Positions 28,913 through 51,596 are shown, counted from the first letter of the whole stretch. The stretch: DNA of 63,363 bases, filler included, from Candidatus Woesearchaeota archaeon (GCA_003650545.1; 3 parts of 3 records of this genome joined end to end with filler, not necessarily neighbours in it), one strand, 5' to 3'. Made by a program: numbers and translations. The notes: a model not told the origin generated them from the letters alone.

Positions 28913-30553
28913 TTACATCTCTGGTGGCATCATCGCCCCAGAACGACCTTGAGGCATTCCCGGTTGTTGTGGTTGTTCACCTGATGCAATCACATCATCT
29001 ATTCTTAGTATCATGATCGCAACATCAGATGCAGAACTTACTGCTTGTGTTTTTATTGTCAAAGGTTCTAAAATTCCAGTTCTCCAGGAATTCATAACCT
29101 TACCTGTAAATACATTGATGCCTGCCCACTTTTCTTTCTTATTATGTGCTGACTTTAGTTCTGCTAAAACATCGATCGGATCAAGGCCAGCATTTTCTGC
29201 CAAAGTTCTTGGAATGATTTCTAGTGCATCTGCAAATGAAGCAACTGCTAATTGCTCTCTACCAGATAAGGAATTTGCAAATCTTCTAAGTTGCGATGCT
29301 AATTCCATTTCTGCTGCGCCTGCACCTGCAACGATTTTTCCTGATCTAATTGCAGAACTAACAACCCCGATTGCATCGTGCAGTGAGCGTTCAATTTCAG
29401 CAGCAACATGCTCTGTTCCACCTCTTACTAAGATGGTGACAGATTTTGCTTTTTTGCATTCGCGGACATAAGTCATCATCTCATCGCCAACCTTAACTTC
29501 CTCTACAATGCCTGCTTTTCCTAAGTCTTTATCATTAAGATCGTCCAAATTAGTTATTATTTTTGCTGCTGTTGCTCTTGCTAGTTTTTCCATGTCTGAC
29601 TTTTTTACCCTGCGCACTGCATATATCCCCTTCTTTGCAAGATAATGCTGAGCAACATCATCGATTCCTTTCTGACAGAATACAACATTTGCTCCACTTG
29701 CAGCAACCTTCTCCACCATTGCTTTTAGCATCTTCTCTTCTTGTTCTAGAAAAGCCTGCATTTGCTGAGGTGCTGTAATCTGAATCTTAGCGTCTATTTC
29801 TGTGTTTTTGATTTCAAGTGCAGAATCTATCAATGCAATCTTTGCTGAATCAACAAATTTAGGCATTCCTGAGTGAACGCGTTCTTTATCAAGGATGATA
29901 CCTTCAACAAGTTCGGTGTCTTCAACAGAACCGCCCACCTTTTTCTCGATCTTAATGTTATCTGTATCTAATGAGAATTCATCGTCCATTACATCAATAA
30001 CAGCTTTAACTGCTTTAACAACCAAGGCAGATAGCTCTTCTTTATTTGCTTCTGCAGATCTTCCGTTCATTGCTGTCTGTGCTATTTTTTTTAAAACTGT
30101 CTCATCGCCAATCTTAATCTCCTCAGCCATCTTTTCAAGGATTTCGTTGGCTTTCTCAGCTGCAATTCTAAAACCGCGAGCAAGAACAGATGGATGAACC
30201 TCCTGATCTAGTAGAGTTTCAGCTTGTTTTAATAGCTCGCCTGCTAAAACAACAGCTGTTGTTGTACCATCACCAACCTCATTTTCTTGTGTTTTGGCGA
30301 CTTCGACAAGCATCTTTGCTGCTGGGTGTTCTATGTTCATCTCTTCTAGGATGGTGACTCCATCATTTGTGACAGTTACATCGCCAACTGTATCAACTAG
30401 CATTTTGTCCATCCCTTTTGGACCTAATGTTGTTCTAACTGTTTCTGCTACTAGCTTAGCTGCAAGAATGTTGTTGCGCTGCGCTGTTCTACCCTGAGAG
30501 CGCTGCGTACCTTCTGACATTATAAATATTGGTTGTACTGGTTGATTAGTCAT
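28913..30553 (-). CDS. ths: thermosome (group II chaperonin) subunit
   Basis: [26 protein letters not shown]. Confidence 0.96.
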
Positions 30554-30804
30554 GATTCTCCCCCTCCTATTTAGTAGTTAATATTTTTCTCTTTGGTTTT
30601 AATTTTAGGGTTGTATATAAAGATTGTGGTATTTTTTTTAATTTTGTGCTATATAGTAAAAATAAAATTATGGATGTGGTAGCATTGTGTTTTAATTATG
30701 CAGTGGTAAAAAAAGAGAAATATTTAAATACTAGTGATTTTAAGTTGTATTTTAAGAATATTAAAATTATATAATAGATATATCATTTATGTTGGTGTGG
30801 GCAA

Positions 30805-30957
30805 ATGGTTGAATTTATACTAACCAAAAAAATTAGCAAGCAAGGAGCGCAAAACTTGATCATCATCCCTTCTTTTCTTAGAGATAAACTAAAACCAAAG
30901 ACTTTGGTAGAAGTAAAAATAAAAATATTAGATAGTGGAGATAAAAATGACAATTAA
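30805..30957 (+). CDS. 50-aa AbrB/MazE-like DNA-binding protein (not in ORF track)
   Basis: MVEFILTKKISKQGAQNLIIIPSFLRDKLKPKTLVEVKIKIL; overlaps ATPase start. Confidence 0.6.
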   Translation: MVEFILTKKISKQGAQNLIIIPSFLRDKLKPKTLVEVKIKILDSGDKNDN

Positions 30958-32233
30958 AGAAACCTTAAAAAAATTGGATAATGGTGAATATAAAAACTCG
31001 AGAGAGGTTGTCTTAGGTGGTGTTTCTTATTCTGTTCGAGAGATTCTGATAAAAGCGCCGCTATTAGCAGGGATTAATGTGTACCTTGTTGGTGGAACAG
31101 GCGAGGGTAAAACACAGTTAGCTCATGATTTGATTGGGTATCTTGGGGATAATTCTTGTTATATGATGGGAAGACCTGATTTTGAGCCAAGTGAGCTTCT
31201 TCGTCAGGTTAGGCTAGATAAGCTCAACAAAGTGAAATCTGACAAAGAACTAGTTGAATTAACACAGAATGTTAAAAAAATATTGTTTTATTCAGACGAA
31301 ATAAACAGAGCTCCCCCAATCGTTCAAAACTATTTTTTTGATTTTATGGATGGTAAATTTGTGTACAACGGTAAAATTTATTCATTGGGTAGCAGAGGTT
31401 ATACACTTGGTTATGCTACAGGTAACTTGGGGAATGACGAATATGTGGGGGTTTCTGATTCTGACAGAGCTTTACTCGATAGGATGCATATGATTATTAA
31501 ATTAGATTATCCAGATTTTTCTACAACCGAACTTGATGATTATGAAATCTTTGGTGGAAAAAAAGATCCGCGAGCTAGTTTGCCAAATATAGTAACAGAT
31601 ATTTCTCAGGAGATTGTTTCTATGCATGATGAATTTAATAAAATAGAGGTTAATTTACTTCTTCCTGTATTAGGTGTTTATTTTCATAAAGGTTTAGATT
31701 ATCTGGAAAATACTGCAAAGCACAGCAAACGTGCTCTGAATCATCACTGGGCTGAAGCAGAAGGAGTAAGAACAGACAATGATGAAAATAAGATATATCC
31801 TTTATCCAAAAGAGCAATTTTTAGTTCAATTTGTTTAACAACTGCTTTAGACCTTATTGCGAGGGAAAAAGGAGAGAAGCCTGACACTACAAGATTATTT
31901 CTTGATAGTTTAAGGTTGATTGTGCCTTATTCTGGTGTTATAAATCTTTCTTACATTAACATGGAACATGATGGAGATGTTTACAGCGCTTTTGACTCAA
32001 TCTTTTCTAGAATTAGGGAAGATATTTCAGAGAGAATTGAATTGCTAGAAGAAGCTTGCATTCTTGCTGAGTCTGGTAGAAAAGATGACAGATTATTTAA
32101 TAAGATTTCTCCTTATGAGGGAAGGTGGGACTCTGTAAAAAATAGTCTTTCAATGTATGCTGATAAAATGGCAAATAATCCTTCTAAGAAAGGGTTAAAA
32201 ATAAAGGATTTTTTAGATAAAGCGCATGATTAA
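30947..32233 (+). CDS. MoxR-like AAA+ ATPase
   Basis: GGTGEGKT, DEINRAPP..QN, ATGN, DRALLDR. Confidence 0.85.
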   Translation: MTIKETLKKLDNGEYKNSREVVLGGVSYSVREILIKAPLLAGINVYLVGGTGEGKTQLAHDLIGYLGDNSCYMMGRPDFEPSELLRQVRLDKLNKVKSDKELVELTQNVKKILFYSDEINRAPPIVQNYFFDFMDGKFVYNGKIYSLGSRGYTLGYATGNLGNDEYVGVSDSDRALLDRMHMIIKLDYPDFSTTELDDYEIFGGKKDPRASLPNIVTDISQEIVSMHDEFNKIEVNLLLPVLGVYFHKGLDYLENTAKHSKRALNHHWAEAEGVRTDNDENKIYPLSKRAIFSSICLTTALDLIAREKGEKPDTTRLFLDSLRLIVPYSGVINLSYINMEHDGDVYSAFDSIFSRIREDISERIELLEEACILAESGRKDDRLFNKISPYEGRWDSVKNSLSMYADKMANNPSKKGLKIKDFLDKAHD

Positions 32234-33170
32234 AATGAGCAGAGATGAATTATCTGAATATGAAAAAGCAATACTTAGAAGATATCTAAAAAGGAAAAAT
32301 GAAGACGAAAGTAATAGCAAAAATGAAGATGATGAGAGCAAGAGCAAGAGTACACAAACTTTTGCTGGGAATAAACTGAATAAAGTTTCAGTTAATATTG
32401 ATGATTTAATAAACTATGGAAAAACTTTTTACAGCAAAGAAAAGAAAGATGGCAAATATATCGGAGTTGCTGTGGCTTTGCAACAAGCATTAGATTTTGC
32501 TGGGCCTAATGGTTATGTTGCTACCATGCCAGAGCTTATTGCTGCTAAACTTAAAGCTGATAGTCATGATTTCTGGAAAAAATGGTATGCAGTCCATACT
32601 GAAGAAAACATCGGAATAGATAAAAAAGGAAGGTTTTACAGCAGAGGAGAGCCTGTGTTAGTTATTGTTAATGGCGGTGGCATTTTAACTCCAGAGAGAA
32701 TCAGAAAAGCGTATGACGAAGGCTTGATTAATGGAAGTGCTAAGTATCGTGATGAAGAATTTAATGATCTTCTTGATGGAAAATTGCCTGATGGAACTTC
32801 AATTGAATTATACAGGTTTAGAGAAATTAAAAAAGGCATATCAAATCTGCCTCACAGGTTTGGCGTAGTAATGCCTTATTCTATGGCGCAGAACACTAAA
32901 TCAGATTATCATCAAAAGAAAGAGTTTATGGAAAATCCTTTGGTAATAGCAAGAGCAGGAGGAATTGAATATTTAGATGCTTACTTTGAAAAAGCGAAAC
33001 GTTTAGAGAACAAAGTTGGGAGTTTGCATTCTTTTTCAGGCAGAGATGCTTCAACTCCTCAGGGCCGTGTGCTCTTCCTCGGTATTAGTTGTGACGGCCT
33101 GGGTGGTAGCATTCTCGATAGCGATGCACGTTTCGTCGGGGTGGAGGTGAGGAGCAGCGCGCGAAAATAG
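32226..33170 (+). CDS. DGR-type variable protein paralog 1 (CLec-like C-terminus)
   Basis: MPELI; C-terminal GRVLFL-x5-GL-x4-L-x4-RFVGV. Confidence 0.7.
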   Translation: MIKMSRDELSEYEKAILRRYLKRKNEDESNSKNEDDESKSKSTQTFAGNKLNKVSVNIDDLINYGKTFYSKEKKDGKYIGVAVALQQALDFAGPNGYVATMPELIAAKLKADSHDFWKKWYAVHTEENIGIDKKGRFYSRGEPVLVIVNGGGILTPERIRKAYDEGLINGSAKYRDEEFNDLLDGKLPDGTSIELYRFREIKKGISNLPHRFGVVMPYSMAQNTKSDYHQKKEFMENPLVIARAGGIEYLDAYFEKAKRLENKVGSLHSFSGRDASTPQGRVLFLGISCDGLGGSILDSDARFVGVEVRSSARK

Positions 33171-33323
33171 ATATTGAAAAACCTAAGAAAGCATAGCTTT
33201 CTGGGTACCAAAAACCAGAGGTTTTTGAGTATGAATAGCATATTTGCTTTTAAATCAAACAGAACAAGAATGGCTGGTGAGGTTCACCGAGATTTTACTA
33301 TTACAAAGAATAGAGGTCTGTAA

Positions 33324-34268
33324 ATGAGCAGAGATGAATTATCTGAATATGAAAAAGCAATACTTAGAAGATATCTAAAAAGGAAAAATGAAGACGAAAG
33401 TAAGAGCAAAAATGAAGATGATGAGAGCAAGAATACACAAACTTCTGCTGGAAATAAACTGAATAAAGTTTCAGTTAATATTGATGATTTAATAAACTAT
33501 GGAAAAACTTTTTACAGCGAGGAAATGAAAAGAATAATGCATATCGGAGTTGCTGTGGCTTTGCAACAAGCATTAGACTTTGCTGGGCCTAATGGTTATG
33601 TTGCTACAATGCCTGAACTTATTGCTGCTAGACTTAAAGTAGATGAGAATCATGATTTTTGGCAGAATTGGTACACGGTTCATACTGAAGAAAATATTGG
33701 AATAGACAGCAAAGGAAGATTTTACAGCAGAGGAGAGCCTATGTTAGTTGTTGTTAATGGCGGTGGCATTTTAACTCCAGAGAGAATTATGAAGGCGTAT
33801 GACGAAGGGTTGATTAAGGGAAGTGTTAAGTATCATTATGAAGAATTTAATGATCTTCTTGATGGAAAATTGCCTGATGGAACTTCAATTGAATTATACA
33901 GGTTTAGAGAAATTAAAAAAGGCATATCAAATCTGCCTCACAGGTTTGGCGTTGTCATGCCTTATTCTATGGCGCAGAATACTAAATCAGGTTATCATAA
34001 AAAGAAAGAGTTTATGGAAAATCCTTTGGTAATAGCAAGAGCAGGAGGGATTGAGAACCTAGAATCATATTATGAAATGGCTAAAGCATCAGATGGTGAA
34101 TTAGGTAATTATCATCCGTTTGAAAGAAGAGATGCTTCGACTCCTCAGGGCCGTGTGCTCTTCCTCGATTATGATTTTTACGGCCTGGATGGCTGCATTC
34201 TTTATAACTATGGCCGTTTCGTCGGGGTATGTCGGGGTAGCGAGGTGAGGAGCAAGGGGTCTGTGTAA
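33324..34268 (+). CDS. DGR-type variable protein paralog 2
   Basis: highly similar to paralogs 1/3; variable C-terminal region. Confidence 0.7.
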   Translation: MSRDELSEYEKAILRRYLKRKNEDESKSKNEDDESKNTQTSAGNKLNKVSVNIDDLINYGKTFYSEEMKRIMHIGVAVALQQALDFAGPNGYVATMPELIAARLKVDENHDFWQNWYTVHTEENIGIDSKGRFYSRGEPMLVVVNGGGILTPERIMKAYDEGLIKGSVKYHYEEFNDLLDGKLPDGTSIELYRFREIKKGISNLPHRFGVVMPYSMAQNTKSGYHKKKEFMENPLVIARAGGIENLESYYEMAKASDGELGNYHPFERRDASTPQGRVLFLDYDFYGLDGCILYNYGRFVGVCRGSEVRSKGSV

Positions 34269-34269
34269 A

Positions 34270-36000
34270 ATGACGCTTTTAGAACTTCGTAAAAAACTTG
34301 AATCAAGAAAAAACCAAATAGGACTAATTGGTATAAGATTAGATCTTTCTGAAAGTCCTGGTAATAGTGTCTCGGCAGCTCTAACATCTGATTGGAAAAT
34401 AATTTCTATTAAATATGGTAAAAATTTAGACCTAGTTCCTGACTCAGAAACACTTCGATATGTTCGTAAGAGAGATATCGATGACCCAAAACTTAAGCTC
34501 AGTTTGGATTTACTTGAGCATGAATCGAGCCACAGAGAAAATCCTTCTGGAACGCGGTTTGGTTGTCCTTATACTGTTGAAATGCACGATATAATCAAAG
34601 AAGCTATTCATAAAGTCTTGAGTGTGAAAGGGAAAGCTGGCCTTGAAGATTATGTGACTAATGCTTTTGAGGATATCTTAGACAATGTGAATTGTAGGAA
34701 ACATACAGATTTTGCTGGACAGGCATTGTTCTGGAATAATCAAGGGTTGGTTAATTCTAAAAATGAAAAATATTCACCATTTTATGAAGCATTTGTACAG
34801 ATTAATTTGGTTTTGGGTGGATCTGTTAAAGAGTACACACTCTTAAGAAGATTCTATACAAATGATAGGAAAGTTAAAAAAGCAACGAAAGGATTTTTAG
34901 ATGACATGCGGTCAATATTGGGTGTTGAAAAGCTTGTTAGAATTCACGAAAAACCTGCATTCAAAACTATTTTTACAAGGGATCTTCAACAGAGAGAAAA
35001 ATTGTGGACAGATTTAGCACATAGTTTTGCTATGCACACTGCTGATTTATTAGAACAAATGCCACCAGAAATGATGTTTGGTTCTAGCGAGAATCCTTTT
35101 GATAAAGAAATGCGTCAGCCTAGAGTTAAACAAGAAATCGCCTTCAACAGATATAAAAGAGGTAAAGGACCTGCAGGTCATAGAGATTTACAAGAACAAT
35201 TGTACGATCTATACAAGAGGATCTCAAAAGAGATACGAGTAGAAACATCATTTTATTCAGAAAGTCAAAAAATCCCCCCTGTTCATTATGGCAAACGGTT
35301 TATTAAAAAGGACGAACAAAAATTTAGATATAAAGGTATCGGATTCAAGCAAGACGGATCAATTGGTTTAAGAACAACAAGATATTCTGAGCTGTACCCT
35401 GTTTCATATAAGGTTCATCTCAGTAAATTCCCAAAGTTTAAACTTATTCTTATAGACAGATCTTCAAGTATGAAGTATAATTGTGATAACGAATCTGATG
35501 TAGGCGATAAATCGTTTATTCCGTGGGGCGATAAAAGCAAATATCACTTTGCATTAAAAGGTTATTTTGGTATCGATAACTTTCTTGAAAGACAAGGTAT
35601 AAGCAACTATGTACAGAATTGTGTACTTGGGTTTTCGGGCGAAAATGCGATAAGAGGTAAATCAAAAAAAGTTGCAAAAGCATTGCTTACAATGCCTTCA
35701 GGAGGAACATCGTTTGATATAGATCGTCTAGAAAGTGAACTTTCAGATGAAAATTTTGTTCTTTCGATTTCTGATGGCGAATTTGAGCTTACTGAGGATA
35801 TAAAAAAAAGGCTTGAACAAAAAATTAAACAAGTAAAAGTTGATTATGCACACATCCAAATTGGAGAAGACACAGATTTTTCTAGCTACCTAAAAAAAAT
35901 AGACGTACCTGTGTTTAAAGTGAGGGGTGATGATGACTTAGCAAAAACAATGATATCTTTTGTCTCAAGCTATTACAGAAGAATAGAGGTCTGTAAATGA
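34270..36000 (+). CDS. HExxH metallopeptidase-like + vWA domain protein
   Basis: LLEHESSH..NAFED; MIDAS LIDRSSSM, SGGT, ISDGE. Confidence 0.8.
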   Translation: MTLLELRKKLESRKNQIGLIGIRLDLSESPGNSVSAALTSDWKIISIKYGKNLDLVPDSETLRYVRKRDIDDPKLKLSLDLLEHESSHRENPSGTRFGCPYTVEMHDIIKEAIHKVLSVKGKAGLEDYVTNAFEDILDNVNCRKHTDFAGQALFWNNQGLVNSKNEKYSPFYEAFVQINLVLGGSVKEYTLLRRFYTNDRKVKKATKGFLDDMRSILGVEKLVRIHEKPAFKTIFTRDLQQREKLWTDLAHSFAMHTADLLEQMPPEMMFGSSENPFDKEMRQPRVKQEIAFNRYKRGKGPAGHRDLQEQLYDLYKRISKEIRVETSFYSESQKIPPVHYGKRFIKKDEQKFRYKGIGFKQDGSIGLRTTRYSELYPVSYKVHLSKFPKFKLILIDRSSSMKYNCDNESDVGDKSFIPWGDKSKYHFALKGYFGIDNFLERQGISNYVQNCVLGFSGENAIRGKSKKVAKALLTMPSGGTSFDIDRLESELSDENFVLSISDGEFELTEDIKKRLEQKIKQVKVDYAHIQIGEDTDFSSYLKKIDVPVFKVRGDDDLAKTMISFVSSYYRRIEVCK

Positions 36001-36908
36001 GCAGAGATGAATTATCTGAATATGAAAAAGCAATACTTAGAAGATATCTAAAAAAGAAAAATGAAGACGAAAGTAAGAGCAAAAATGAAGATGATGAGAG
36101 TAAGAGTACACAAACTTCTGCTGGGGATAAACTAAATAAAGTTTCAGTTAATATTGATGATTTAATAAACTATGGAAAAACTTTTTACAGCGAGGAAAAG
36201 AAAGGAAAAATGCATATCGGAGTTGCTGTGGCTTTGCAACAAGCATTAGATTTTGCTGGGCCTAATGGTTATGTTGCTACCATGCCAGAGCTTATTGCTG
36301 CTAAACTTAAAGTAGATGAGAGTCATGATTTTTGGCAGAATTGGTACACGGTTCATACTGAAGAAAATATTGGAATAGACAGCAAAGGAAGATTTTACAG
36401 TAGAGGAGAACCTGTGTTAGTTGTTGTTAATGGCGGTGGAATTTTAACTCCTGAGAGAATTATGAGGGCTTATGACGAAGGGTCGATTAGCAGCGCAAAA
36501 TACCACCAGAGAGAGTTTGATGATCTTTTAGATGGAAAATTGCCTGATGGAACTTCAATTGAATTATACAGGTTTAGAGAAATTAAAAAAGGCATATCAA
36601 ATCTGCCTCACAGGTTTGGCATTGTTATGCCTTATTCTATGGCGCAGAACACTAAATCAGGTTTTCATCAAAAGAAAGAGTTTATGGAGAATCCATTGGT
36701 AATAGCAAGAGCAGGAGGAATTGAGAACATAGAATCATATTATGAAATGGCTAAAGCACCAGATGGTAACTTAAGTAATTACCATCCGTTTAAAAGAAGA
36801 GATGCTTCAACTCCTCACGGCTGTGTGCTTTTCCTCGATAGTAGTTATAACGGCCTGGTTGACCTAAATCTTTATGGGGAGGCCCGTTTCGTCGGGGTAG
36901 CAAGGTGA
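35997..36908 (+). CDS. DGR-type variable protein paralog 3
   Basis: highly similar to paralogs 1/2; ends ARFVGVAR. Confidence 0.7.
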   Translation: MSRDELSEYEKAILRRYLKKKNEDESKSKNEDDESKSTQTSAGDKLNKVSVNIDDLINYGKTFYSEEKKGKMHIGVAVALQQALDFAGPNGYVATMPELIAAKLKVDESHDFWQNWYTVHTEENIGIDSKGRFYSRGEPVLVVVNGGGILTPERIMRAYDEGSISSAKYHQREFDDLLDGKLPDGTSIELYRFREIKKGISNLPHRFGIVMPYSMAQNTKSGFHQKKEFMENPLVIARAGGIENIESYYEMAKAPDGNLSNYHPFKRRDASTPHGCVLFLDSSYNGLVDLNLYGEARFVGVAR

Positions 36909-37061
36909 GCAACGCGATAATAGCTTCTGAAGCAAAATTTTCCAATAGGTTTTTATATAACTTCTATTTATGAATTTATTAAATAAATTTTTCAGCTATT
37001 TATCCTCTAAATGAGGCTGTGTATAAAGTTAAGCTGTACCTAAAAAATATCTGAAAGGTTC

Positions 37062-38009
37062 TTGGTTAACATGACCATCACAAGCGAAAAAAAATTCATC
37101 ACTGGTATAATTGGAGAAAATCCTTCAACATATAGTAAATCGAGAATAATGTGGAACTTTTGTTTTGCAGTTCTTGGGATAGATGCAGAATATATACCCT
37201 GGGATATAAATAAAGAAGAACTTGAAGAGTTTATAAAAGAACTAACAAAAAACAAAAAAGTGCGAGGCTTCAACATTACAAACCCTTACAAGGTCGAAGC
37301 TGCTAAATTTTTTAAAGATAGCTTAGACGATGCTGCAAAAGCTATCGGGGGTATTAACACTGTAGTCATGAGAAATGGAGTGAAAGCATATTCAACAGAT
37401 GGCTATGGAGCAATAACATGTATCACTGAGAAAAGTATAAATGTAGAAGGCAAACATCTACTAGTTATAGGTGCTGGAGGTGCAGGAGTAGCTGTCGCTG
37501 TCGAAGCAGTCAAACAGGGTGCTAAGGTTTCTGTTGCAAACAGAACACACAAAAAAGCTGTTGATTTGCAAACAAGGATCAAGCAGTTTCTAGGACAAAA
37601 TATAAACGCGATTCCTCTTTATGAGGATAGTAATCTATCTACTGAATTCAATGACGCATTCAGAAATGCAGACATAATCGTTAACACTGTTGACTACGAG
37701 AAGAAGAAAGGAGAACCTCTATTTCCCGAATCTATGTATAAAAACTTAACAGGAAATGTTGTTTTTATGGATGCTGTGTATGGCCATAAAAGCTTCATTC
37801 TGGAGTTTGCAGACAAATATGGTCATATTGCAATTCCAGGAGAAAACATGCTTGTACACCAAGCAGTTCTTGGATTCCATTATATGTTTGATACTGAAGT
37901 GGAGACTGTAGAGAAGTTAATGAAGTATGCTATAAAAAGATTTGAGTTCAACGCAGCAAATAAAGAGATTGAAGATGAAGCTGCTCGTTATAAATCAGGA
38001 TCTGCTTAA
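37062..38009 (+). CDS. aroE: shikimate dehydrogenase
   Basis: SKS..MWN, GFNITNPYK, AIGGINT, STDGYG, IGAGGAG, MLVHQA. Confidence 0.85.
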   Translation: MVNMTITSEKKFITGIIGENPSTYSKSRIMWNFCFAVLGIDAEYIPWDINKEELEEFIKELTKNKKVRGFNITNPYKVEAAKFFKDSLDDAAKAIGGINTVVMRNGVKAYSTDGYGAITCITEKSINVEGKHLLVIGAGGAGVAVAVEAVKQGAKVSVANRTHKKAVDLQTRIKQFLGQNINAIPLYEDSNLSTEFNDAFRNADIIVNTVDYEKKKGEPLFPESMYKNLTGNVVFMDAVYGHKSFILEFADKYGHIAIPGENMLVHQAVLGFHYMFDTEVETVEKLMKYAIKRFEFNAANKEIEDEAARYKSGSA

Positions 38010-45307: not shown

Positions 45308-45359
45308 GAGTTTTCCTTCCTATAATTTTACCTCTCTTCATGGTAATACCTCCTTTGGG

Positions 45360-45680
45360 TTATTGCAGCAACTGCACCGCGGGCTCAAGACCCCCGATAA
45401 TCGTATCGAGCTTCACCCGCACATCATCGATCTCACCAGCCTCTAACGAAGCTTTGAGTTCTTTCAGACGCAATACAGCTTCCTTTATGGTTTCTGTATA
45501 GTCGTCCACCTCAGCTTCGAGCTCTCCAATGCGATCATCAAGCCTGTCTATCGTATCGTATGCATCATCTGCTCTGTCTGTTGCATCAGAGAGTTCATTC
45601 TCAAGCTCGGAGATGTATTTTTCGTATTCATCTACTGATTCGTGGATGGCAAATATCTCTTTATTGGACATCTTAGACAT
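45360..45680 (-). CDS. acidic coiled-coil protein
   Basis: heptad pattern; AAAGGAGG SD upstream. Confidence 0.55.
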   Translation of the reverse strand: MSKMSNKEIFAIHESVDEYEKYISELENELSDATDRADDAYDTIDRLDDRIGELEAEVDDYTETIKEAVLRLKELKASLEAGEIDDVRVKLDTIIGGLEPAVQLLQ

Positions 45681-46253
45681 ATATAAAACCTCCTTTATTT
45701 ATTTTACCCTGGCCGAACCCGGGTTCAGCACACCCCCTGACATGCCGTCAGACGCACAGAAATGCCCCTAGAATCCATTTTCTCATGCGGGGGTATACCT
45801 ATATATGGGTTCGATCAGTATGGGTTACGGTGTACTAAAAGGTACACCAGACTTATTTTAATTACGACAACGAAAATTGAAGGAAACAGTTTATGAAGAC
45901 TAAAAGTGTAACGTCACATCACTCACCAAATTTCGCATCAGACGCACAGAAATGGGTCTAGAATCCATTTTGTGTAATTTTTACCCATATAAAAAGGATA
46001 TGTCGAAAGTTCGACAGCAGATACATGCATACGATGCATGCATATATTGAACACTTTCGGAGTGATCACCCCCCTGGCCCCCGGAGGGGGGTCTTAGCAC
46101 CCCAAAATGTTCCCTTCTCTCCCCTTCTTCTCCCTTCCTTCTTCCCTTCTCTTATATATCTCATCCTATTAACTATCCCTTATTATCCCCTCTTATCCTT
46201 CATATTAATCGTGCATCATTGCCTTCGATATATATATATAGAGTGTTTTCTTC

Positions 46254-46304
46254 GTAATATATAATTACAGTCTTCGTTTCACTTCGACTGTAATTATATA
46301 TTAC
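46254..46304. repeat. perfect 19-bp inverted repeat
   Basis: GTAATATATAATTACAGTC-13nt-GACTGTAATTATATATTAC. Confidence 0.9.
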
Positions 46305-46417
46305 TTATACTATTAATATCTAACACAGAGCTTCGATCGAAGGCATTTTTACGCGAAGAAAGAGGGTGAAGACGGGGATATTTCGCGCAAAAGTGTCTAA
46401 TTTCGCGAGGGAAAAGT

Positions 46418-46479
46418 TCAGGGTATATATATTAATACATCAATAATAGATTATTAATATATTAATATATATACCCTGA
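46418..46479. repeat. 62-bp near-perfect AT-rich palindrome
   Basis: 20-bp perfect arms TCAGGGTATATATATTAATA / TATTAATATATATACCCTGA with further inner pairing. Confidence 0.9.
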
Positions 46480-47098
46480 GGCGCACTTTACAAGGTTCAC
46501 AGACGGGGACAACCACTGCTGCACTGCGCTGACCCTTGAGGGGTCAGCGCTGCTACGCAAGCCGGCGGTTAGTGTGTATAGCCGGGAGTGTATGCATGCA
46601 CTTCCGGGGGGAAGCATATTTACCCTCATCTGAGAGAAGAGTTTCCCCAAAGCTTCCTCCATAGATCCTTCGTGTAACTATTACAGTAAGGTGCATTTTG
46701 GCACGGTACTTGCGCACATCCCTTCGACAAGCTCGGGGGATGAGCTACTGCCCCCTGACCCCCGGAGGGGGGTTCAGGTTACACATCTGACATGCCGTCA
46801 GACGCACGTAAAGGGGTCTAGAATCCATTTACTCATGCGGGGGTATACTATAGTATACCCCGACTCCGAAAATGCAATACAGCGAAACCTCGTGCGTCTG
46901 AGAGCATTTTAGCGTCTATACGATGGAGCAGCCATCATGCATTTCGAAAAAATTTCGATATTATGCACCCCCCGCCCCCCGGAGGGGGGCAAAAAAAAAG
47001 AAAAGAAGTAAAGTATAGTTCCCATGTATATCGAAAAAATTTCGTTGTTCTCCGGCAGGGCTCACACATGGCAAGCCCTACCGGAGTAACGTTTATTT

Positions 47099-47515
47099 TC
47101 AGAATGTCTCTTCAGCTTTGGTGTCAGTGGCTGGAGTTACCTCCGATTCCACTGCCACCTCGGCCTCTGCTTCGGGCTCGGCTTCGGAGCGTGGTCGTGG
47201 CCCGAACGTTACGTTCTGCGCGACCACTTCGGTTATATATCTCCGTTGGCCGTTGCTCTCATACGAGCGACTGGCCAAGCGTCCCTCTACAGTTATGCTC
47301 CGGCCTTTGCCGAGATACTCGGCGATGTTCTCTGCCTGTTTTCCCCACGCGACCACGCGCAGGAAATCGGCAGACTTTACCAAGTCGCCGCTGGCAGTCC
47401 GATACTGCCTGTTAACGGCGATCGTAAAGTTCGCCACCGGGCGTCCGGACTGCGTGTAACGCAGTTCGGGATCCCGCACTAAATTCCCGCTTAAAATTAC
47501 ACGATTGATATTCAT
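47099..47515 (-). CDS. ssb: single-stranded DNA-binding protein
   Basis: NRVILSGNLVRDPELRYT, AWGKQAE, VEGRL, acidic tail. Confidence 0.95.
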   Translation of the reverse strand: MNINRVILSGNLVRDPELRYTQSGRPVANFTIAVNRQYRTASGDLVKSADFLRVVAWGKQAENIAEYLGKGRSITVEGRLASRSYESNGQRRYITEVVAQNVTFGPRPRSEAEPEAEAEVAVESEVTPATDTKAEETF

Positions 47516-48731
47516 TATTCTACCTCCTTTTCTACGACGTTTTCAGCCAATGTGGCTTCTACGTCGTCTTTTGTTGTGTTAATAACAGCTTTCCTTTCGC
47601 CCTCCAGCTTGTCTGCTAAAGAGCGAACTAACTTTGCCGCCGTGCCTCTGTTCTGCTCGACGGCTTTCCCGATCTCAGACCTGATGTCTGATGCTAATTT
47701 CATCAGGTCAGCAATTATTATATTCATACTAATTCCTCCTTTTCGATGATGATCTCGTCGACCACCTTGTTGAAGGCAGCCTCGGTCTCATCCTTCTCTT
47801 TGGCCGCGCTCTCATTTATCATCCCTGCTGCAGCCAGAAACAGGGTGATAATATCAGAAGCCATCCTTTCCAGTTTGGCTTCCTCGTTTTTATCTAAATT
47901 TTCTGGAAATATTATATTCATCTTTTACCTCCTTCCAGGGATGCGAACCAGTCCCATTTTCTCCAGCATCCACAGTAGCTTCACACTGGGATGCTCGGAG
48001 ACTGATGGACATCCCTTCTTGAGCCGAATCAGCGACCTGACCCGGCTTATAACATAATTTTTCTCGTCGTCCGTCGGACTGAGGATGACGTCCTCTTCCC
48101 TGCGACGAGAGTCTCTAACCACGATGGATATCGGCATGATGAGGGCATTGCCATCCTCATCGCACCGATATCCATTTATCACTCTATCTCCCCTTTCTTC
48201 GAGCTCGGTCCTATTGAGATCTAAATTCATCGATCTCCTCCAGGAGCTTCCTGAGTGCCTCGTCGCCGCCTTCGCGCCATGCTCTGCGGAGGATGCACTC
48301 ATGAGCGAGCTCTGCTAATTCATCGAACTCACTCTTTTCTTCTGCGGCGACGGGGAGAAGATCGCCACAGATGCACTCCCCATACTGACGACCATCGGAC
48401 AGTGTCCTGATGGTGTCATCGGGGGCATTAATCTCTTTGCCGCCACAAAAGACGCATGGAGTAGCGGCATATACCTTTTTTCTACGCATAAAAAATCACC
48501 TCCTTATGCGTACTTATCCTCGATTTCTTTCTCCACGACACCAGCGGCATCGTAGATGTCGAGGATATCATCCATTGACAATTTTATGCCCTTTTTCTTC
48601 AGTACGTGAATTATGTCACGTAACTGTGACGGCTTTATTAGATGTTCTTTTACGATTATTTTCTTCTTCATTGTTTCCTCCTTTCGGGGCTCTGTGCAAG
48701 CCCCAATTGATATATCTCTAATGGGAGCCAT
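47515..48731 (-). CDS. run of small hypothetical phage genes (47515-47727, 47724-47921, 47925-48230, 48211-48489, 48504-48671)
   Basis: overlapping stop/start, SD sequences; 48211-48489 has Cys pairs. Confidence 0.55.
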
Positions 48732-48816
48732 GCAAGCACCACTCGGCGCTTCCCAGCACAGCTCCCATGTACTTCCACACCGATCTTGGGTTCCAGAGAG
48801 TTAGATCAGAGTCTTT

Positions 48817-49161
48817 TTACCTTACGTAGACGATGATCTTCCCTCTCAGTTCACCCAGGGTGAAGGCATATACCTTTACCCGTTTGCTTCCCTCTCCTAC
48901 ACCACCGAAGAGGGAGCGGATAAAGGCATATTTCTCTCCCTCGTTAAGTTCTCTGAGGGAAGAGTCCTCGCCCAGAAGAGCCTTTTCAAGCTCATCAGCG
49001 AAGGACGCCTTCGTCTCCCATGTATCTAGCACGAGAGACTCCGCTGGGTGAATGAAATCCAGGATCCTCTTACCTGTCGAATAAGACAGGTATCCTGACG
49101 GGATAACTTTAGTCCCATCAGGAATGATCCTGAACTCCATACCCAAGACCGAGAATGTCAT
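48817..49161 (-). CDS. hypothetical protein, paralog of 51660-51998
   Basis: shared FRIIPDGT..VPSGYLSYSTG.RILDFI.P. Confidence 0.75.
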   Translation of the reverse strand: MTFSVLGMEFRIIPDGTKVIPSGYLSYSTGKRILDFIHPAESLVLDTWETKASFADELEKALLGEDSSLRELNEGEKYAFIRSLFGGVGEGSKRVKVYAFTLGELRGKIIVYVR

Positions 49162-49217
49162 TTAGTTATCACCTCCTTTTCTATTTTCTAATGGTCATAT
49201 TGTCTGCGAATTTATTC

Positions 49218-49568
49218 TTACTTCATATCACTGAAGAAGAATACTCGCAGTTTCCCATTTTTGTCTGGTTTGATCATCCCCGTGATTTGGGCTCCTTTGA
49301 ATCCATACTCATTGTCCGAGGATACAATCTCTTCCAATGTGATGTATACCATAGAGCAATTTGGATCCACTTTCTCTGGATTACCCTGTACAACTCTGAT
49401 GTTGCACTTCAGTTCCGTAGGATAATCTAGCATGGTCAGGTCGCCATTTTTGGACTTAGATACTATTACATTGGATCCCTCCTTAGGCTCTCTTTCCCCA
49501 TGGACTATTTCATGCGCGGCCTTTGCGATACTATTCATCTTCGAATTTGCACTAAAGAACTTAGCCAT
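49218..49568 (-). CDS. hypothetical protein
   Basis: AAAGGAGG SD. Confidence 0.6.
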   Translation of the reverse strand: MAKFFSANSKMNSIAKAAHEIVHGEREPKEGSNVIVSKSKNGDLTMLDYPTELKCNIRVVQGNPEKVDPNCSMVYITLEEIVSSDNEYGFKGAQITGMIKPDKNGKLRVFFFSDMK

Positions 49569-49632
49569 TTTACTACCTCCTTTCTCGGGGCCAAGCCCAG
49601 TAGGCGTGACCCCGAAATGAAAAAAGAAAGAA

Positions 49633-50121
49633 CTACTTTATCTTCCTCGGATCCAGGACTATGATCTCCAGCTTGCTCTTGCAAGCCTCGATCATCCTCC
49701 TTGTTCCTCCCGGCAGTCCGGCATATACTGCCAGGAGGACGGACCCTTCCTCCTCGAGCAGCCAATCCTTCATGGCTGCATTTCTCTTTTCCATGCAGCC
49801 ACGAAAGTATGGCTTCGAGGAGACCATTCGTACTTCGTGTGCAGCTTCCAGAAGCCGCTTGTATAGTGCTTGCGACTTTGGAGGCCATACTCTGTCCTGG
49901 CCCGCACAGGGCACGAATGCCACATATGGCACTTGTGTCTCTACACAGGCCAGACAGAATAACTGGTCAACGCCCAGCGCCATCCCTGTGCAGCCAACGG
50001 ATGGCTTCAATTCATGAAGTCTCTCCGTCAGCCACCGCAGGATGGCTTTATTCGCCGGGTGATCCAGGTTATACCCACCCGGCAGAGCACGTGGGCGATG
50101 CCCAGTTACTCCGATCCTCAT
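49633..50121 (-). CDS. DUF1273/YspA SLOG-family protein
   Basis: GVTGHRP, GMALGVDQ, RNAAM, GGT. Confidence 0.85.
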   Translation of the reverse strand: MRIGVTGHRPRALPGGYNLDHPANKAILRWLTERLHELKPSVGCTGMALGVDQLFCLACVETQVPYVAFVPCAGQDRVWPPKSQALYKRLLEAAHEVRMVSSKPYFRGCMEKRNAAMKDWLLEEEGSVLLAVYAGLPGGTRRMIEACKSKLEIIVLDPRKIK

Positions 50122-50321
50122 ACTTTTTCACCTCCTTCCATTGTGTCCAGGCCCTTTCGGTCATCCATGGCTTCCAGGGCTTCCTTCAGATACACCTCGA
50201 AAGGCTTCCTTTCCTTTCGGGGGCCTCTCCTGCTCCCATGTGACCCATGTTGCTGTCGTCCCCATGGGAACAGAAGAGGCTGACAACACTTAATTTTCAT
50301 TTTTCCCTTATCACCTCCTTT

Positions 50322-50868
50322 TTACCGAAGGACAATATTATCATCCGGCAACGATACGTGCAACGTTGCAGAGAGGTTGTCCTTCCAGAACCGGAAGTCC
50401 TCCTTGACTCCCTTCCCCTCTACTATAACAAGGGGACCCTTATTGCTGTAATAAAGTAGAGTAAGGGTCATCCCTTCCAGTTCGATGACCGTCCGGTCAT
50501 CGAACTCTTTGATTTCTACTTTTGTCTTTCTCATTTTTACCTCCTTTCTGGACGGCTTATCCCATCCACTTGCCGTCCATGATCAACCACCACCTTTTCT
50601 GGATCTTCCACGGTGGGATGACCCAGAGAATGGCGTGGCCCTCTCGAGCCAGCCGGGCATATCGGCTGTCTTTATATTTATTTTGTTCAATAAACGTAAA
50701 GACGCCGACTCCGGGCTTTCTCACCTGGATCCCCCGACACTTGCCGCCGGAGAATCCAATTACGGGGAAGCCAAGGATCTTGTCCCCTCGTTTTGCTTCG
50801 GGTAACTCTTTGGCTACCCGAAGAGCGAAGTCTTTCAACTTCGCCATATTAACTTTGTTCTTATCCAT
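50322..50868 (-). CDS. two small hypothetical genes (50322-50534, 50557-50868)
   Basis: each with AAAGGAGG SD. Confidence 0.55.
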
Positions 50869-50895
50869 TCTATTTTACCTCCTTTCTCGCCTGGC

Positions 50896-51237
50896 CTATA
50901 TTTTGGCCAGGCTTTTGCACCCAACGATCCGACCCGCATCATCGCGGATCGTCTCGTCGACGACATATATGTCGTCTCGGATGCTGTCAGAGGCCTTTAC
51001 AGCCTCGGCAACAACCCGGGAGACGATATATGCCGTCCCGGGTGCTGGATCGGGCAGGCCGGTTACCTCGCCCATCACAGAGCGATTTACCGGCACATCC
51101 ATCCCATCTATTGGGATGGACCCAATCCGTTCGCGGGTCACCCCGCATCTGGCTATGCCAGACGAGGGGATAACCCGCTCTTCATCCCCCACGATCCTGA
51201 TTTCGTGGGGGGTCAAATTTATGACTCTTTTATTCAT
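50896..51237 (-). CDS. conserved viral hypothetical protein (NLTPH family)
   Basis: INLTPH, PSSG.AR, GLPDP, YIVS, VGC..L. Confidence 0.7.
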   Translation of the reverse strand: MNKRVINLTPHEIRIVGDEERVIPSSGIARCGVTRERIGSIPIDGMDVPVNRSVMGEVTGLPDPAPGTAYIVSRVVAEAVKASDSIRDDIYVVDETIRDDAGRIVGCKSLAKI

Positions 51238-51254
51238 TGTCTATTCCCCTTTTC

Positions 51255-51446: not shown

Positions 51447-51503
51447 CTCCTACCTCCTTTCTTTTGCCTCGGCCCGAGATGGGATGCTTCCACCGAGGGA
51501 GGA

Positions 51504-51589: not shown

Positions 51590-51596
51590 ATACAGT

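What the first reader, a model, noticed from the sequence alone, without database searches (positions are those of the whole stretch)
30805..36908. MoxR-vWA operon with three DGR-type hypervariable proteins but no RT or template repeat in view
Seen: at 33060-33143, 34146-34229 and 36816-36899 the invariant codons contain no adenine (GGC CGT GTG CTC TTC CTC, GGC CTG, CGT TTC GTC GGG GT) despite AT-rich gene bodies. Variable codons differ mostly at positions 1-2 with a retained pyrimidine (ATT/TAT/AGT, AGT/GAT/AGT, TGT/TTT/TAT, GAC/TAC/AAC). Known: this is the signature of DGR A-to-N mutagenesis of AAY codons in CLec-fold targets. Inference: remote targets of a trans-acting DGR feed diversified sensors into an AbrB-regulated MoxR/HExxH-vWA complex, a possible host-recognition or conflict system in DPANN. 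A few non-A changes suggest drift as well.
Basis: partly seen in the sequence, partly recalled or inferred. Interest (0 to 1): 0.8.

Follow-up and report, generated by a model that had tools for sequence, protein, structure and literature searches.

The report
Orphaned archaeal DGR target cassette
Three lectin-fold binding proteins in a small archaeon still carry the mark of a self-mutating retroelement, but the enzyme, its template and the DNA hairpins it needs are gone, so their once-variable tips now look frozen.

Summary
The three genes at 32226-33170, 33324-34268 and 35997-36908 belong to the AvpA family, the solved C-type-lectin-fold variable protein of nanoarchaeal diversity-generating retroelements (DGRs). 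The profile matches PDB 5IOO at E 3.7e-16 and the model matches it at E 1.4e-13. Their 81-nt variable regions carry an adenine-mutagenesis signature: 30 of 33 codons are NNY, against 414 of 828 in the gene bodies.

In related loci the same operon (small ORF, AAA_5 ATPase, AvpA, HExxH/vWA protein, AvpA) lies between a divergent reverse transcriptase and a template repeat placed 218-406 nt after the last target. Here those two slots hold a thermosome gene and a shikimate dehydrogenase gene.

The 85%-complete bin has no RT, no template repeat and no RT-16 RNA. The GC hairpin found after 34 of 34 relatives' variable regions is missing from all three copies. Non-adenine columns vary at 10 of 56, against 0-2 of 57 in nine related loci.

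The best reading is an orphaned, frozen DGR target array whose genes are still under purifying selection. A trans-acting DGR is unlikely but not excluded. The AbrB label has no support. This scan has flagged the same cassette type before on other genomes.

The parts
30554..30804 (.). Intergenic stretch between the thermosome gene (28913-30553, minus strand) and the cassette. In relatives this slot holds the divergent DGR reverse transcriptase.
   Evidence: RT lies directly upstream of the small ORF/ATPase and on the opposite strand in L001/L002, L003, L004, L008, L009, L012 and L018, with a partial copy in L021. No RT similarity anywhere in G000.
30805..30957 (+). Conserved 50-aa leader ORF of the cassette. 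Its family is unknown.
   Evidence: 64-76% identical copies stand at the head of the cassette in 9 loci. No Pfam family at E<=10 for it or five homologues.
30935..32233 (+). AAA+ ATPase of the AAA_5 (MoxR/McrB/dynein-related) type, 432 aa.
   Evidence: Pfam AAA_5 E 7.3e-10, 39.4 bits against a cut-off of 22. Walker A and Walker B residues are invariant in 11 homologues. GvpN E 1.3e-6, far below its cut-off. 64% identical to the ATPase of L010.
32226..33170 (+). AvpA-family variable protein T1, 314 aa.
   Evidence: Profile against PDB 5IOO E 3.7e-16. Model pLDDT 82.9, Foldseek 5ioo_A E 1.4e-13, target-normalised TM 0.85.
33063..33143 (+). Variable region VR1, 27 codons.
33144..33170 (+). Decayed 3' tail of T1, at the place where relatives carry the GCGCC-GGA-GGCGC hairpin.
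   Evidence: No GC hairpin. DNA folding energy of the first 40 nt is -1.2 kcal/mol, against -5.4 to -11.8 in relatives.
33324..34268 (+). AvpA-family variable protein T2, 314 aa.
   Evidence: 193 homologues at E<=0.001; the named ones are mostly Woesearchaeota or Nanoarchaeota. Alignment A2.
34149..34229 (+). Variable region VR2, 27 codons.
34230..34268 (+). Decayed tail of T2, with a repeated copy of GTCGGGGTA and no hairpin.
34270..36000 (+). 576-aa protein with an N-terminal HExxH region and a C-terminal vWA domain carrying a DxSxS (MIDAS) motif.
   Evidence: H84, E85, H88, D396, S398 and S400 are invariant in 14 homologues. Residues about 384-575 match vWA folds: VIA-align Z 14.9 with rmsd 3.0 over 170 residues (4wfq_A), and Z 13.0 for the NorD VWA domain; 78 Foldseek matches at E<=0.001. 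No Pfam or PDB sequence match. The whole model is poor (pLDDT 58.3).
35997..36908 (+). AvpA-family variable protein T3, 303 aa, with a frameshifted and shortened tail (RFVGVAR then stop).
   Evidence: A read-through TGA was flagged.
36819..36899 (+). Variable region VR3, 27 codons, the most drifted copy.
   Evidence: All three non-NNY codons (CTA, GGG, GAG) and the TGT and CTT changes are in this copy.
36909..37061 (.). Intergenic stretch before the shikimate dehydrogenase gene (37062-38009). In relatives this slot holds the RT-16 RNA and the template repeat.
   Evidence: The TR starts 218-406 nt after the last VR in 11 of 12 loci printed (the 12th, L013, has an unrecognised target copy in between), and full-length TR hits occur in 14 loci. 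This stretch has no similarity to the relatives' spacer+TR (z<=2.1 against shuffles). An independent Logan contig runs from T3 into the flank (record 8).

Best explanation
This is the target half of an AvpA-type archaeal DGR cassette that has lost its diversifying machinery.

The ancestral cassette, still intact in relatives, reads: reverse transcriptase (divergent strand), then small ORF, AAA_5/MoxR-like ATPase, one to three AvpA-like variable proteins, an HExxH+vWA protein, one more AvpA-like protein, then the RT-16 RNA and the template repeat. In that state the RT copies the template RNA with errors at adenines. The cDNA replaces the last 28 or so codons of each AvpA gene, guided by the shared 3' end and a GC hairpin just after each variable region.

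In this genome the RT and the template/RT-16 RNA are absent and the hairpins have decayed. The three variable tips keep the amino-acid repertoire written by past adenine mutagenesis, but now evolve only by ordinary mutation.

The five larger genes are intact, and the three AvpA bodies are under purifying selection. The operon therefore probably still works with three fixed specificities. My inference is that the AvpA proteins act as cytoplasmic binding modules handed to the vWA adaptor and the ATPase through their shared N-terminal segment.

Shown: family membership, the signature, the cis architecture in relatives, absence of RT/TR/hairpin, and drift. Inferred: the order of events, continued function, and docking to the vWA/ATPase pair.
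For: 1. Family. The profile of 29 homologues hits AvpA 5IOO at E 3.7e-16, with the VR motifs aligned. The T1 model (pLDDT 82.9) has 5ioo_A as its only Foldseek match at E<=0.001 (E 1.4e-13).

2. Relatives run an active, classical DGR. In 23 VR-TR pairs of equal length, 273 of 615 template adenines differ, against 6 of 1317 other bases. Three further pairs of unequal length were dropped.

3. Cis architecture. The RT lies next to the cassette in L001/L002, L003, L004, L008, L009, L012, L018, L017, L019 and L020, with a partial copy in L021. A full-length TR is present in 14 loci. Four of five relatives' genomes hold exactly one RVT_1 match, and in three of them it lies beside the cassette.

4. 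Absence here. There is no RVT_1 match in G000. tblastn with three cassette RTs gives a best E of 4.7. The TR profile and the full DGR-RNA profile hit only the three VRs; the next hit has E 0.23. Rfam RT-16 is found in L001, L004 and L009 but not in G000 or in the window.

5. Hairpin. A 5-6 bp GC stem with a 3-nt loop follows 34 of 34 relatives' VRs in 18 loci. It has two compensatory variants: GCGTC/GACGC in 7 VRs and GTGCC/GGCAC in 1. It follows 0 of 3 VRs here. In Bordetella phage BPP-1 such a hairpin is needed for efficient retrohoming (PMC3240598, abstract read), and it is noted for AvpA (PMC5006420, passages read).

6. Drift. Non-adenine columns vary at 10 of 56 among the three VRs, against 0-2 of 57 in nine related loci. 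Synonymous divergence in the VRs (dS 0.13-0.41) is about that of the gene bodies (dS 0.18-0.35).

7. Decaying tails. T2 carries a repeated GTCGGGGTA, T3 has a frameshift and early stop, and T1 has lost sequence.

8. Selection. Body dN/dS is 0.26-0.30.

9. Flanks are housekeeping genes: thermosome, shikimate dehydrogenase, cytidylate kinase, FKBP, FtsZ, Spt5, L11.
Against: The bin is only 85% complete and has 133 contigs, so an RT/TR on an unbinned or unassembled contig cannot be excluded. I could not scan the source metagenome a second time.

Remote targets are documented for other DGRs (PMC5758913, passages read). Paul et al. left 'fossil or remote' open for RT-less nanoarchaeal VRs (PMC4372165, passages read).

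Only assembled Logan contigs of one run were available, not raw reads. They span all three VRs cleanly at depth 35-43, but contigs drop rare variants.

All three copies share the same derived, hairpin-less tail (AGGTGAG), yet their VRs differ at adenine columns. This needs either gene conversion of the tails after the loss, or a hairpin that was dispensable in this lineage. I have not resolved the order of events.

The hairpin requirement is shown experimentally only for the Bordetella phage.

The Logan contigs break at 30768-30782, inside the left junction. Only the contig in the window, which is identical to the one metagenome record found (L027), bridges that point.
Confidence: 0.75

Rival explanations
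1. The three genes are live remote targets. A DGR (RT plus a 27-codon TR) elsewhere in the genome, on a plasmid or virus, or on an unbinned contig still rewrites them in trans.
For: The bin is 85% complete and fragmented. Trans action and distant targets are known for other DGRs (PMC5758913, passages read; PMC4372165 leaves this open). All three VRs share the unusual 27-codon length, as if written from one template. The adenine-type signature is strong.
Against: Active homing resets non-adenine positions. Here 10 of 56 such columns differ among the VRs, against 0-2 of 57 in nine related loci, and VR dS is about the body dS. The hairpin conserved in 34 of 34 relatives' VRs is absent. In every relative where the flanks can be seen, RT and TR are cis parts of the cassette. 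No RT, TR or RT-16 RNA is in 1.64 Mb of bin. Assembled contigs of one run show one haplotype over each VR (weak evidence).
Confidence: 0.13
2. No retroelement was ever involved. The three paralogues diverged by ordinary mutation under diversifying selection on their binding-site residues.
For: Diversifying selection would also concentrate changes at codon positions 1-2 of the same binding-site codons. VR dN/dS reaches 2.7 for T2 against T3.
Against: 30 of 33 codons at these sites are NNY, against 50% in the bodies. That repertoire is the one expected from AAY templates. The family is homologous to a solved DGR variable protein. Relatives have templates with AAY at exactly these codons.
Confidence: 0.04
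3. The missing RT and TR are an assembly or binning artefact, for example a chimeric join at the cassette edges.
For: The Logan contigs break at 30768-30782, just upstream of the small ORF, with an adapter-like loose end at 30783. A low-depth (3.5) T3-to-T1 chimeric joint exists in the same run.
Against: An independent Logan contig runs from T3 through the right junction into the flank (record 8). Another runs from the thermosome side to within 38 nt of the small ORF (record 1). Depth is even at 29-35. The decay of hairpins and tails lies inside the genes and cannot come from a misjoin.
Confidence: 0.04

Closest known systems
AvpA and the nanoarchaeal DGRs (Paul et al. 2015, PMC4372165; Handa et al. 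2016, PMC5006420, PDB 5IOO)
   Same: The protein family and C-type-lectin fold are the same. So are the C-terminal VR of GRxLF.. to ..RFVGV type and the hairpin coded just after the VR in relatives. RT-less VR 'fragments' were already reported there as fossils or remote targets.
   Different: The copies here have lost the hairpin and show measurable post-homing drift, which decides in favour of 'fossil' for this locus. In the passages I read, those papers contain no mention of an ATPase or von Willebrand protein beside the targets (0 occurrences of 'ATPase' in either paper and of 'von Willebrand' in PMC4372165).
VMAP-ternary MoxR-vWA conflict systems with DGR-diversified FGS/C-type-lectin domains in cyanobacteria and gammaproteobacteria (Kaur et al. 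2020, PMC7159879; Dore et al. 2024, PMC10907252; passages read)
   Same: A MoxR-like AAA+ ATPase, a vWA/MIDAS protein and DGR-written lectin-fold modules lie in one neighbourhood. That arrangement suggests an ATP-gated sensor or effector machine.
   Different: In those systems the variable lectin domain is usually fused to the vWA protein and a VMAP protein is the third part. Here the variable proteins are separate small genes in two to four copies, the vWA protein carries an HExxH region, and I identified no VMAP component. The host is an archaeon. [quoted passage not shown]
MoxR-vWA chaperone pairs such as NorQ-NorD and RavA-ViaA (PMC9976466 and PMC13036017, search listing only)
   Same: An AAA_5-type ATPase gene is paired with a vWA/MIDAS gene. 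The NorD VWA domain is among the structural matches (Z 13.0).
   Different: There is no metalloenzyme client in the operon. The candidate clients are lectin-fold binding proteins. The ATPase is too divergent to place by sequence: its best curated family, GvpN, scores far below the cut-off.

Membership tests
AvpA-type DGR variable protein (C-type-lectin fold) | Sequence homology to AvpA | tested here: met
   hmmsearch of profile A2 against PDB: 5ioo_A E 3.7e-16, two stretches covering the body and the VR.
AvpA-type DGR variable protein (C-type-lectin fold) | C-type-lectin fold as in the solved structure | tested here: met
   AlphaFold2 model of T1, pLDDT 82.9. Foldseek 5ioo_A E 1.4e-13, TM 0.85 normalised to the target, rmsd 2.9. 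5IOO was released in 2016 and, from my recollection of AlphaFold2's training date, probably predates it, so part of the agreement may be learned.
AvpA-type DGR variable protein (C-type-lectin fold) | C-terminal VR with the codon repertoire of adenine mutagenesis (NNY from AAY) | tested here: met
   30 of 33 codons are NNY, against 414 of 828 in the bodies. 16 of 24 adenine columns vary, against 10 of 57 others.
Complete, active DGR | DGR-type reverse transcriptase in the genome | tested here: not met
   RVT_1 gives 0 matches in G000. tblastn with three cassette RTs gives best E 4.7. The bin is 85% complete, so absence from the organism is not proven.
Complete, active DGR | Template repeat matching the VR except at adenines | tested here: not met
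   blastn, nhmmer with a TR profile, nhmmer with a full DGR-RNA profile and Rfam RT-16 find only the three VRs or nothing. The control genomes gave no match anywhere; the positive control for RT-16 is.
Complete, active DGR | Non-adenine positions of the VRs kept identical by homing | tested here: not met
   10 of 56 non-adenine columns vary among the three VRs, against 0-2 of 57 in nine related loci. VR dS 0.13-0.41.
Complete, active DGR | Hairpin/cruciform just downstream of the VR | tested here: not met
   0 of 3 here, against 34 of 34 VRs in 18 related loci, with compensatory stem variants.
Complete, active DGR | Within-population variation confined to the VR | tested here: inconclusive
   Only assembled contigs of one run were available. 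They span each VR with 0 other letters, but contigs cannot show rare variants.
MoxR-class AAA+ ATPase | AAA_5 domain with Walker A and Walker B | tested here: met
   AAA_5 E 7.3e-10, above the cut-off. G53, T55, G56, G58, K59, D121 (nearly invariant) and E122 are conserved in 11 homologues.
MoxR-class AAA+ ATPase | Placement within the MoxR clade rather than McrB or other AAA_5 groups | tested here: inconclusive
   GvpN (a MoxR-type family by my recollection) scores E 1.3e-6 at 28 bits against a cut-off of 267. PDB profile hits are weak (ClpC Walker A, McrB E 0.007). No phylogeny was made.
MoxR-class AAA+ ATPase | Adjacent vWA partner gene | tested here: met
   The ATPase and the vWA protein co-occur in the cassette in the window and in L001, L004, L006, L008, L009, L010, L012, L018 and L021.
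vWA domain with MIDAS site | vWA (Rossmann-like) fold | tested here: met
   Residues 384-575: VIA-align Z 14.9 (rmsd 3.0, 170 aligned; 4wfq_A) and Z 14.5 (4fx5_A). Foldseek gives 78 matches at E<=0.001, and the top-ranked ones are vWA-domain proteins. Blockwise pLDDT across the domain is 40-87.
vWA domain with MIDAS site | DxSxS motif | tested here: met
   D396, S398 and S400 are invariant in 14 homologues.
vWA domain with MIDAS site | Match to a curated vWA sequence model | tested here: not met
   No Pfam or NCBIfam family for any of the 14 members at E<=1.
VMAP-ternary conflict system (Kaur et al. 2020) | A VMAP protein as the third component | not tested
   No model for VMAP was at hand. 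No further conserved gene is present in the cassette beyond the 50-aa ORF.
VMAP-ternary conflict system (Kaur et al. 2020) | Variable FGS/lectin domain fused to the vWA protein (the usual DGR-linked form) | tested here: not met
   The lectin-fold proteins are separate genes on both sides of the vWA gene.
   No Pfam family at E<=10 for the ORF or five homologues. At 50 aa it is too short for a firm negative. No structure was predicted.

The most novel reading that the evidence does not exclude
AvpA-type hypervariable lectins may not be surface adhesins. They may be cytoplasmic, N-terminally tagged binding modules that plug into a dedicated HExxH-vWA adaptor and MoxR-like ATPase. That would make the cassette an archaeal, split-gene counterpart of the DGR-coupled MoxR-vWA conflict systems of bacteria. 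On this reading the window holds a natural 'frozen' version, in which three specificities were fixed and kept by selection after the retroelement was lost. The same machine would then work with or without ongoing diversification.
Probability: 0.35. Interest if true: 0.65.

Novelty: new variant of a known kind. Interest (0 to 1): 0.4.

Why it matters
The function of AvpA, the only solved archaeal DGR variable protein, is unknown. The authors who solved it suggested a role in symbiont-host contact (PMC5006420).

Related loci show that AvpA genes are built into an operon with an AAA+ ATPase and an HExxH/vWA protein, and that the N-terminal segment of the variable proteins changes together with the ATPase/vWA subtype. 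Together with the lack of any signal-peptide-like N-terminus (my reading of the sequences, no predictor run), this points to an intracellular machine and gives a testable partner set.

This window adds a dated natural experiment. The diversifier is gone and its cis signals have decayed, yet all target and partner genes are kept and the target bodies are under purifying selection. That bears on how DGR-written specificities become fixed, and on how to tell fossil targets from remote ones: non-adenine drift, VR dS against body dS, and loss of the hairpin.

Tried and rejected
- Read-level test. Only one public run held the stretch, and only as assembled contigs. It shows no variant in the VRs, but it cannot show rare variants, so it decides nothing.
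Nothing was folded, and binding remains untested.
- A second scan of the metagenome collection for an unbinned RT/TR was not possible.
- Remnants of the TR/RT-16 RNA downstream of T3. Local alignment of 36909-37061 to 12 relatives' spacer+TR gave z<=2.1 against shuffles, so I dropped the idea. An apparent TATA-like box and 'CAGC...GGCTG' pieces seen by eye are not supported.
- The tblastn part was void, because the query file had not been written after the crash. It was repeated properly.
- A relatives-only hairpin alignment (A6) contained one misplaced row (L028, where I guessed the coordinates). I recounted by script instead.
- Pfam and NCBIfam give no family for the AvpA-like proteins, the 576-aa protein or the 50-aa ORF.
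- The N-terminal HExxH region of the 576-aa protein has no confident model (pLDDT mostly under 60). I make no claim about its fold or any protease activity.
- Same-order genomes: only 2 of 30 had weak AvpA-like matches (33% identity). There is no close relative to date the loss.
- Paul et al. 2017 (Nat Microbiol), the main survey of CPR/DPANN DGRs, is not held. It may already describe the ATPase/vWA neighbours. My statement that this is not in print rests only on searches and on the passages read.

Full report
WHAT THE WINDOW IS. The 63,363-base window is three contigs of one metagenome-assembled genome joined by runs of N: 1-24321, 24422-45207 and 45308-63363. The finding lies wholly on the middle contig (20,786 bases). 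The bin, G000, has 1.64 Mb in 133 contigs and is 85% complete with 3.9% contamination. The genes around the finding are archaeal housekeeping genes: thermosome, shikimate dehydrogenase, cytidylate kinase, FKBP, FtsZ, Spt5/NusG, L11, D-aminoacyl-tRNA deacylase and RadC. The host is therefore a DPANN-type archaeon.

THE OBSERVATION. The operon reads, all on the plus strand:
- a 50-aa ORF (30805-30957);
- a 432-aa ATPase (30935-32233);
- T1 (32226-33170);
- T2 (33324-34268);
- a 576-aa protein (34270-36000);
- T3 (35997-36908).

T1-T3 are 82-87% identical paralogues. Their last 27 or so codons before a shared RFVGV motif are far more variable at codon positions 1-2 than the rest of the genes. I set the variable-region (VR) cores at 33063-33143, 34149-34229 and 36819-36899.

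I judged the columns against the templates of relatives (below). Of the columns that are adenine in those templates, 16 of 24 vary among the three copies, against 10 of 57 other columns (Fisher p 4.2e-5). Of the codons at template AAY/GAY/TAY positions, 30 of 33 are NNY, against 414 of 828 in the gene bodies (p 7e-7). One correction: two of the 'invariant' codons do vary in T3 (CGT to TGT, CTC to CTT).

WHAT THE PROTEINS ARE. T2 has 193 homologues at E<=0.001. Almost all that carry a name are from Woesearchaeota or Nanoarchaeota, and none has a Pfam domain. An alignment of 29 of them (A2) shows a conserved body and a C-terminal block, GR(V/L)L(F/Y)L-x5-GL-x-G-x3-L-x3-GRFVGV. The x positions of that block are filled almost only with N, D, Y, S, G, C, F, I, V, L and H.

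A profile of this alignment matches AvpA (PDB 5IOO) at E 3.7e-16, with the variable blocks aligned. AvpA is the solved variable protein of a nanoarchaeal DGR. An AlphaFold2 model of T1 (pLDDT 82.9) has 5ioo_A as its only significant Foldseek match (E 1.4e-13, TM 0.85 on the target). T1-T3 are therefore AvpA-family, C-type-lectin-fold DGR variable proteins (PMC5006420 and PMC4372165, passages read).

The ATPase has a Pfam AAA_5 hit above the cut-off and invariant Walker motifs. Its nearest curated family, GvpN, scores far below threshold, so 'MoxR-like' describes its type and is not a tested clade placement.

The 576-aa protein matches no sequence family. H84-E85-x-x-H88 and D396-x-S398-x-S400 are invariant across 14 homologues of two very divergent subtypes. 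Residues 384-575 of a model that is otherwise poor (pLDDT 58.3) match vWA domains, among them the NorD VWA domain: Z 14.9 with rmsd 3.0 over 170 residues (4wfq_A), and 78 Foldseek matches at E<=0.001.

The 50-aa ORF is conserved at 64-76% identity at the head of the cassette. Neither it nor five homologues match any Pfam family even at E 10, so 'AbrB' is unsupported.

WHAT THE CASSETTE LOOKS LIKE WHEN IT IS WHOLE. I fetched 22 loci from one-genome-per-species contigs and one from viral contigs. The order small ORF, ATPase, T, (T), vWA protein, T recurs in them.

- Reverse transcriptase. A 523-573-aa RT lies directly upstream of the small ORF/ATPase on the other strand in L001/L002, L003, L004, L008, L009, L012 and L018, with a partial copy in L021. 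In a second arrangement it lies just past the template (L017, L019, L020). Four of five relatives' genomes searched hold exactly one RVT_1 match, and in three of them it is this one.
- Template repeat. A TR that would read GR.L..NNNYNGLNGNNNLNNNGRFVGI if translated lies 218-406 nt after the last target in 11 of 12 loci printed. In the 12th, L013, an unrecognised target copy lies in between. Full-length TR hits occur in 14 loci.
- RT-16 RNA. The roughly 150 nt before the TR are Rfam RF03019 (RT-16 RNA) in all three loci tested.
- Activity. In 23 VR-TR pairs of equal length, 273 of 615 template adenines differ, against 6 of 1317 other bases. Three pairs of unequal length were set aside, and L002 (a duplicate of L001) was not counted. 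This is a classical, active DGR.
- Hairpin. Each of 34 VRs in 18 loci is followed by a 5-6 bp GC stem with a 3-nt loop, within 0-3 nt (53 nt in L012). It is usually GCGCC-GGA-GGCGC. Two double, compensatory variants occur: GCGTC/GACGC in 7 VRs and GTGCC/GGCAC in 1. VRs that my peptide pattern did not find (for example in L007, L011, L015 and L022) were not examined. Such a hairpin/cruciform is required for efficient retrohoming in phage BPP-1 (PMC3240598, abstract read) and was noted after the AvpA VR (PMC5006420, passages read).

WHAT IS MISSING HERE. The RT slot holds 250 nt of AT-rich spacer and the thermosome gene. The TR slot holds 153 nt and the shikimate dehydrogenase gene.

- G000 has no RVT_1 match and no tblastn match to three cassette RTs better than E 4.7. 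The tblastn was void.
- blastn with the VRs, nhmmer with a TR profile and nhmmer with a full RT-16+TR profile find only the three VRs. The next hit has E 0.23.
- Rfam RT-16 is not found in G000 or in the window. The controls gave no match, and the positive control is.
- The spacer after T3 has no similarity to the relatives' spacer+TR.
- None of the three VRs is followed by the hairpin. Folding energies of the first 40 nt are -1.2 to -2.2 kcal/mol, against -5.4 to -11.8 in relatives.
- The tails that code for APEAxxARK in relatives have decayed in three different ways: sequence loss in T1, a repeated GTCGGGGTA in T2, and a frameshift with an early TGA in T3.

DRIFT. Homing resets every non-adenine base of a VR to the template. 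Among the VRs of one locus, non-adenine columns vary at 0-2 of 57 in nine related loci but at 10 of 56 here. Synonymous divergence inside the VRs (dS 0.13-0.41, on about 20 synonymous sites) is as large as in the gene bodies (dS 0.18-0.35). The bodies show dN/dS 0.26-0.30. The last homing event is therefore old, roughly as old as the divergence of the three copies, and the genes have stayed under purifying selection since. All three non-NNY codons are in T3.

READS. One public run holds the stretch, as assembled contigs only. Contigs of depth 35-43 span each VR without any other letter. One contig runs from T3 into the right flank. Another runs from the thermosome side to within 38 nt of the small ORF. 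There is a contig break at 30768-30782 with an adapter-like loose end. Two proteins in the collection, from other contigs of 12.8 and 14.5 kb, carry the T3 and T1 variable blocks unchanged (P0003 and P0004). This is weak, possibly non-independent, support for stable VRs.

MECHANISM.
- Shown: past adenine mutagenesis of three AvpA genes; the cis organisation of RT, RT-16/TR RNA and hairpins in relatives; the absence of all of these here; drift afterwards; intact genes, with purifying selection on the three AvpA bodies.
- Inferred: the cassette lost its two flanks and now works with three fixed specificities.
- Also inferred: the AvpA proteins act inside the cell with the vWA protein and the ATPase. 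Their N-termini are charged and do not look like signal peptides (sequences; no predictor was run). All T copies of one cassette share one N-terminal segment, and its type follows the ATPase/vWA subtype. 'M.(R/K)IIP...HLEW.PGQ' goes with the 516-536-aa ATPase and 651-674-aa vWA proteins. 'MS..ELS.Y.K.I..R.L.' goes with the 432-437-aa and 576-578-aa pair (window, L010). L006 and L017/L019/L020 have two further types. Related loci share labels by descent, so this is a lead and not a test. The complex predictor was unavailable.
- Unresolved: the three copies share the same derived hairpin-less tail, yet they differ at adenine columns. Paralogues of one locus cluster together in the family tree in several loci. 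Gene conversion after the loss is therefore a plausible way for the decayed tail to have spread, but I have not shown it.

COMPARISON WITH WHAT IS KNOWN. AvpA-type DGRs, their multiplicity and RT-less VR fragments ('fossils or remotely diversified') are published (PMC4372165). DGR-written lectin domains inside MoxR-vWA 'VMAP-ternary' systems are published for cyanobacteria and gammaproteobacteria, where the lectin domain is usually fused to the vWA protein (PMC7159879; PMC10907252). [quoted passage not shown] In the papers I could search and read, I found no description of the split AvpA/ATPase/HExxH-vWA cassette. The main DPANN survey (Paul et al. 2017) is not held and may contain one.

Earlier notes of this scan describe the same cassette type in at least six other genomes, including one orphaned array. 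They are unchecked AI notes and agree with what I found independently here.

VERDICT. This is an orphaned, frozen AvpA-type DGR target array embedded in a MoxR-like/vWA operon (confidence 0.75). A live trans-acting DGR is the main rival (0.13). It is a new variant of a known kind and of moderate interest. Its value lies in what the conserved partners say about the unknown function of AvpA, and in clear sequence criteria for telling fossil DGR targets from remote ones.

Noticed in passing
L001:13749-13892, L004:13718-13868, L009:10838-10972: The conserved, structured ~150 nt directly upstream of the template repeat in relatives is Rfam RF03019 (RT-16 RNA). That motif is therefore the 5' domain of the DGR template RNA of this cassette. 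A 'TCCCAGC' at its start can pair with 'GCTGGGA' just after the TR.
   Followed up: partly
window 46001-54000 (third contig, 45308-63363): GC content jumps to 0.48-0.51, against 0.29-0.38 on the other two contigs. There is no rRNA or other Rfam family there. This may be a mis-binned contig or foreign DNA.
   Followed up: no
window 32511 / 36259, and proteins P0003, P0004: A low-depth (3.5) contig joins T3 back to T1, and a 305-aa protein from another contig is a T1-head/T3-tail chimera. Recombination between the paralogues occurs in the population, or the assemblers collapse them.
   Followed up: no
window 33185-33235 (T1-T2 spacer); also L012:7760-7810 and the RT-16 loops of L005, L012, L013, L014: Pairs of short, perfect AT-rich hairpins (7-9 bp stems, 3-nt loops) sit after T1 here. 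Similar ones are inserted between VR and GC hairpin in L012, and within variable loops of the template RNA in several loci. They may be small mobile hairpin inserts or terminators.
   Followed up: no
L021:4435-5987: A second possibly degraded case: a truncated post-vWA AvpA copy followed by a short (about 500 nt) RT fragment and then the head of another cassette. No TR was found in this locus.
   Followed up: no
L005:2862-2942, L010:3726-3806, L008:6771-6857, L009:7803-7889: Single VRs in otherwise intact cassettes are one codon shorter or longer than their sister VRs or their template. Codon-scale indels therefore arise in VRs even where a TR is present.
   Followed up: no
window 30783: The public run's contig that starts here carries a 19-nt loose end that looks like a sequencing-library adapter (my recollection of the Nextera mosaic end). 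It is a likely technical cause of the contig break at 30768-30782.
   Followed up: no
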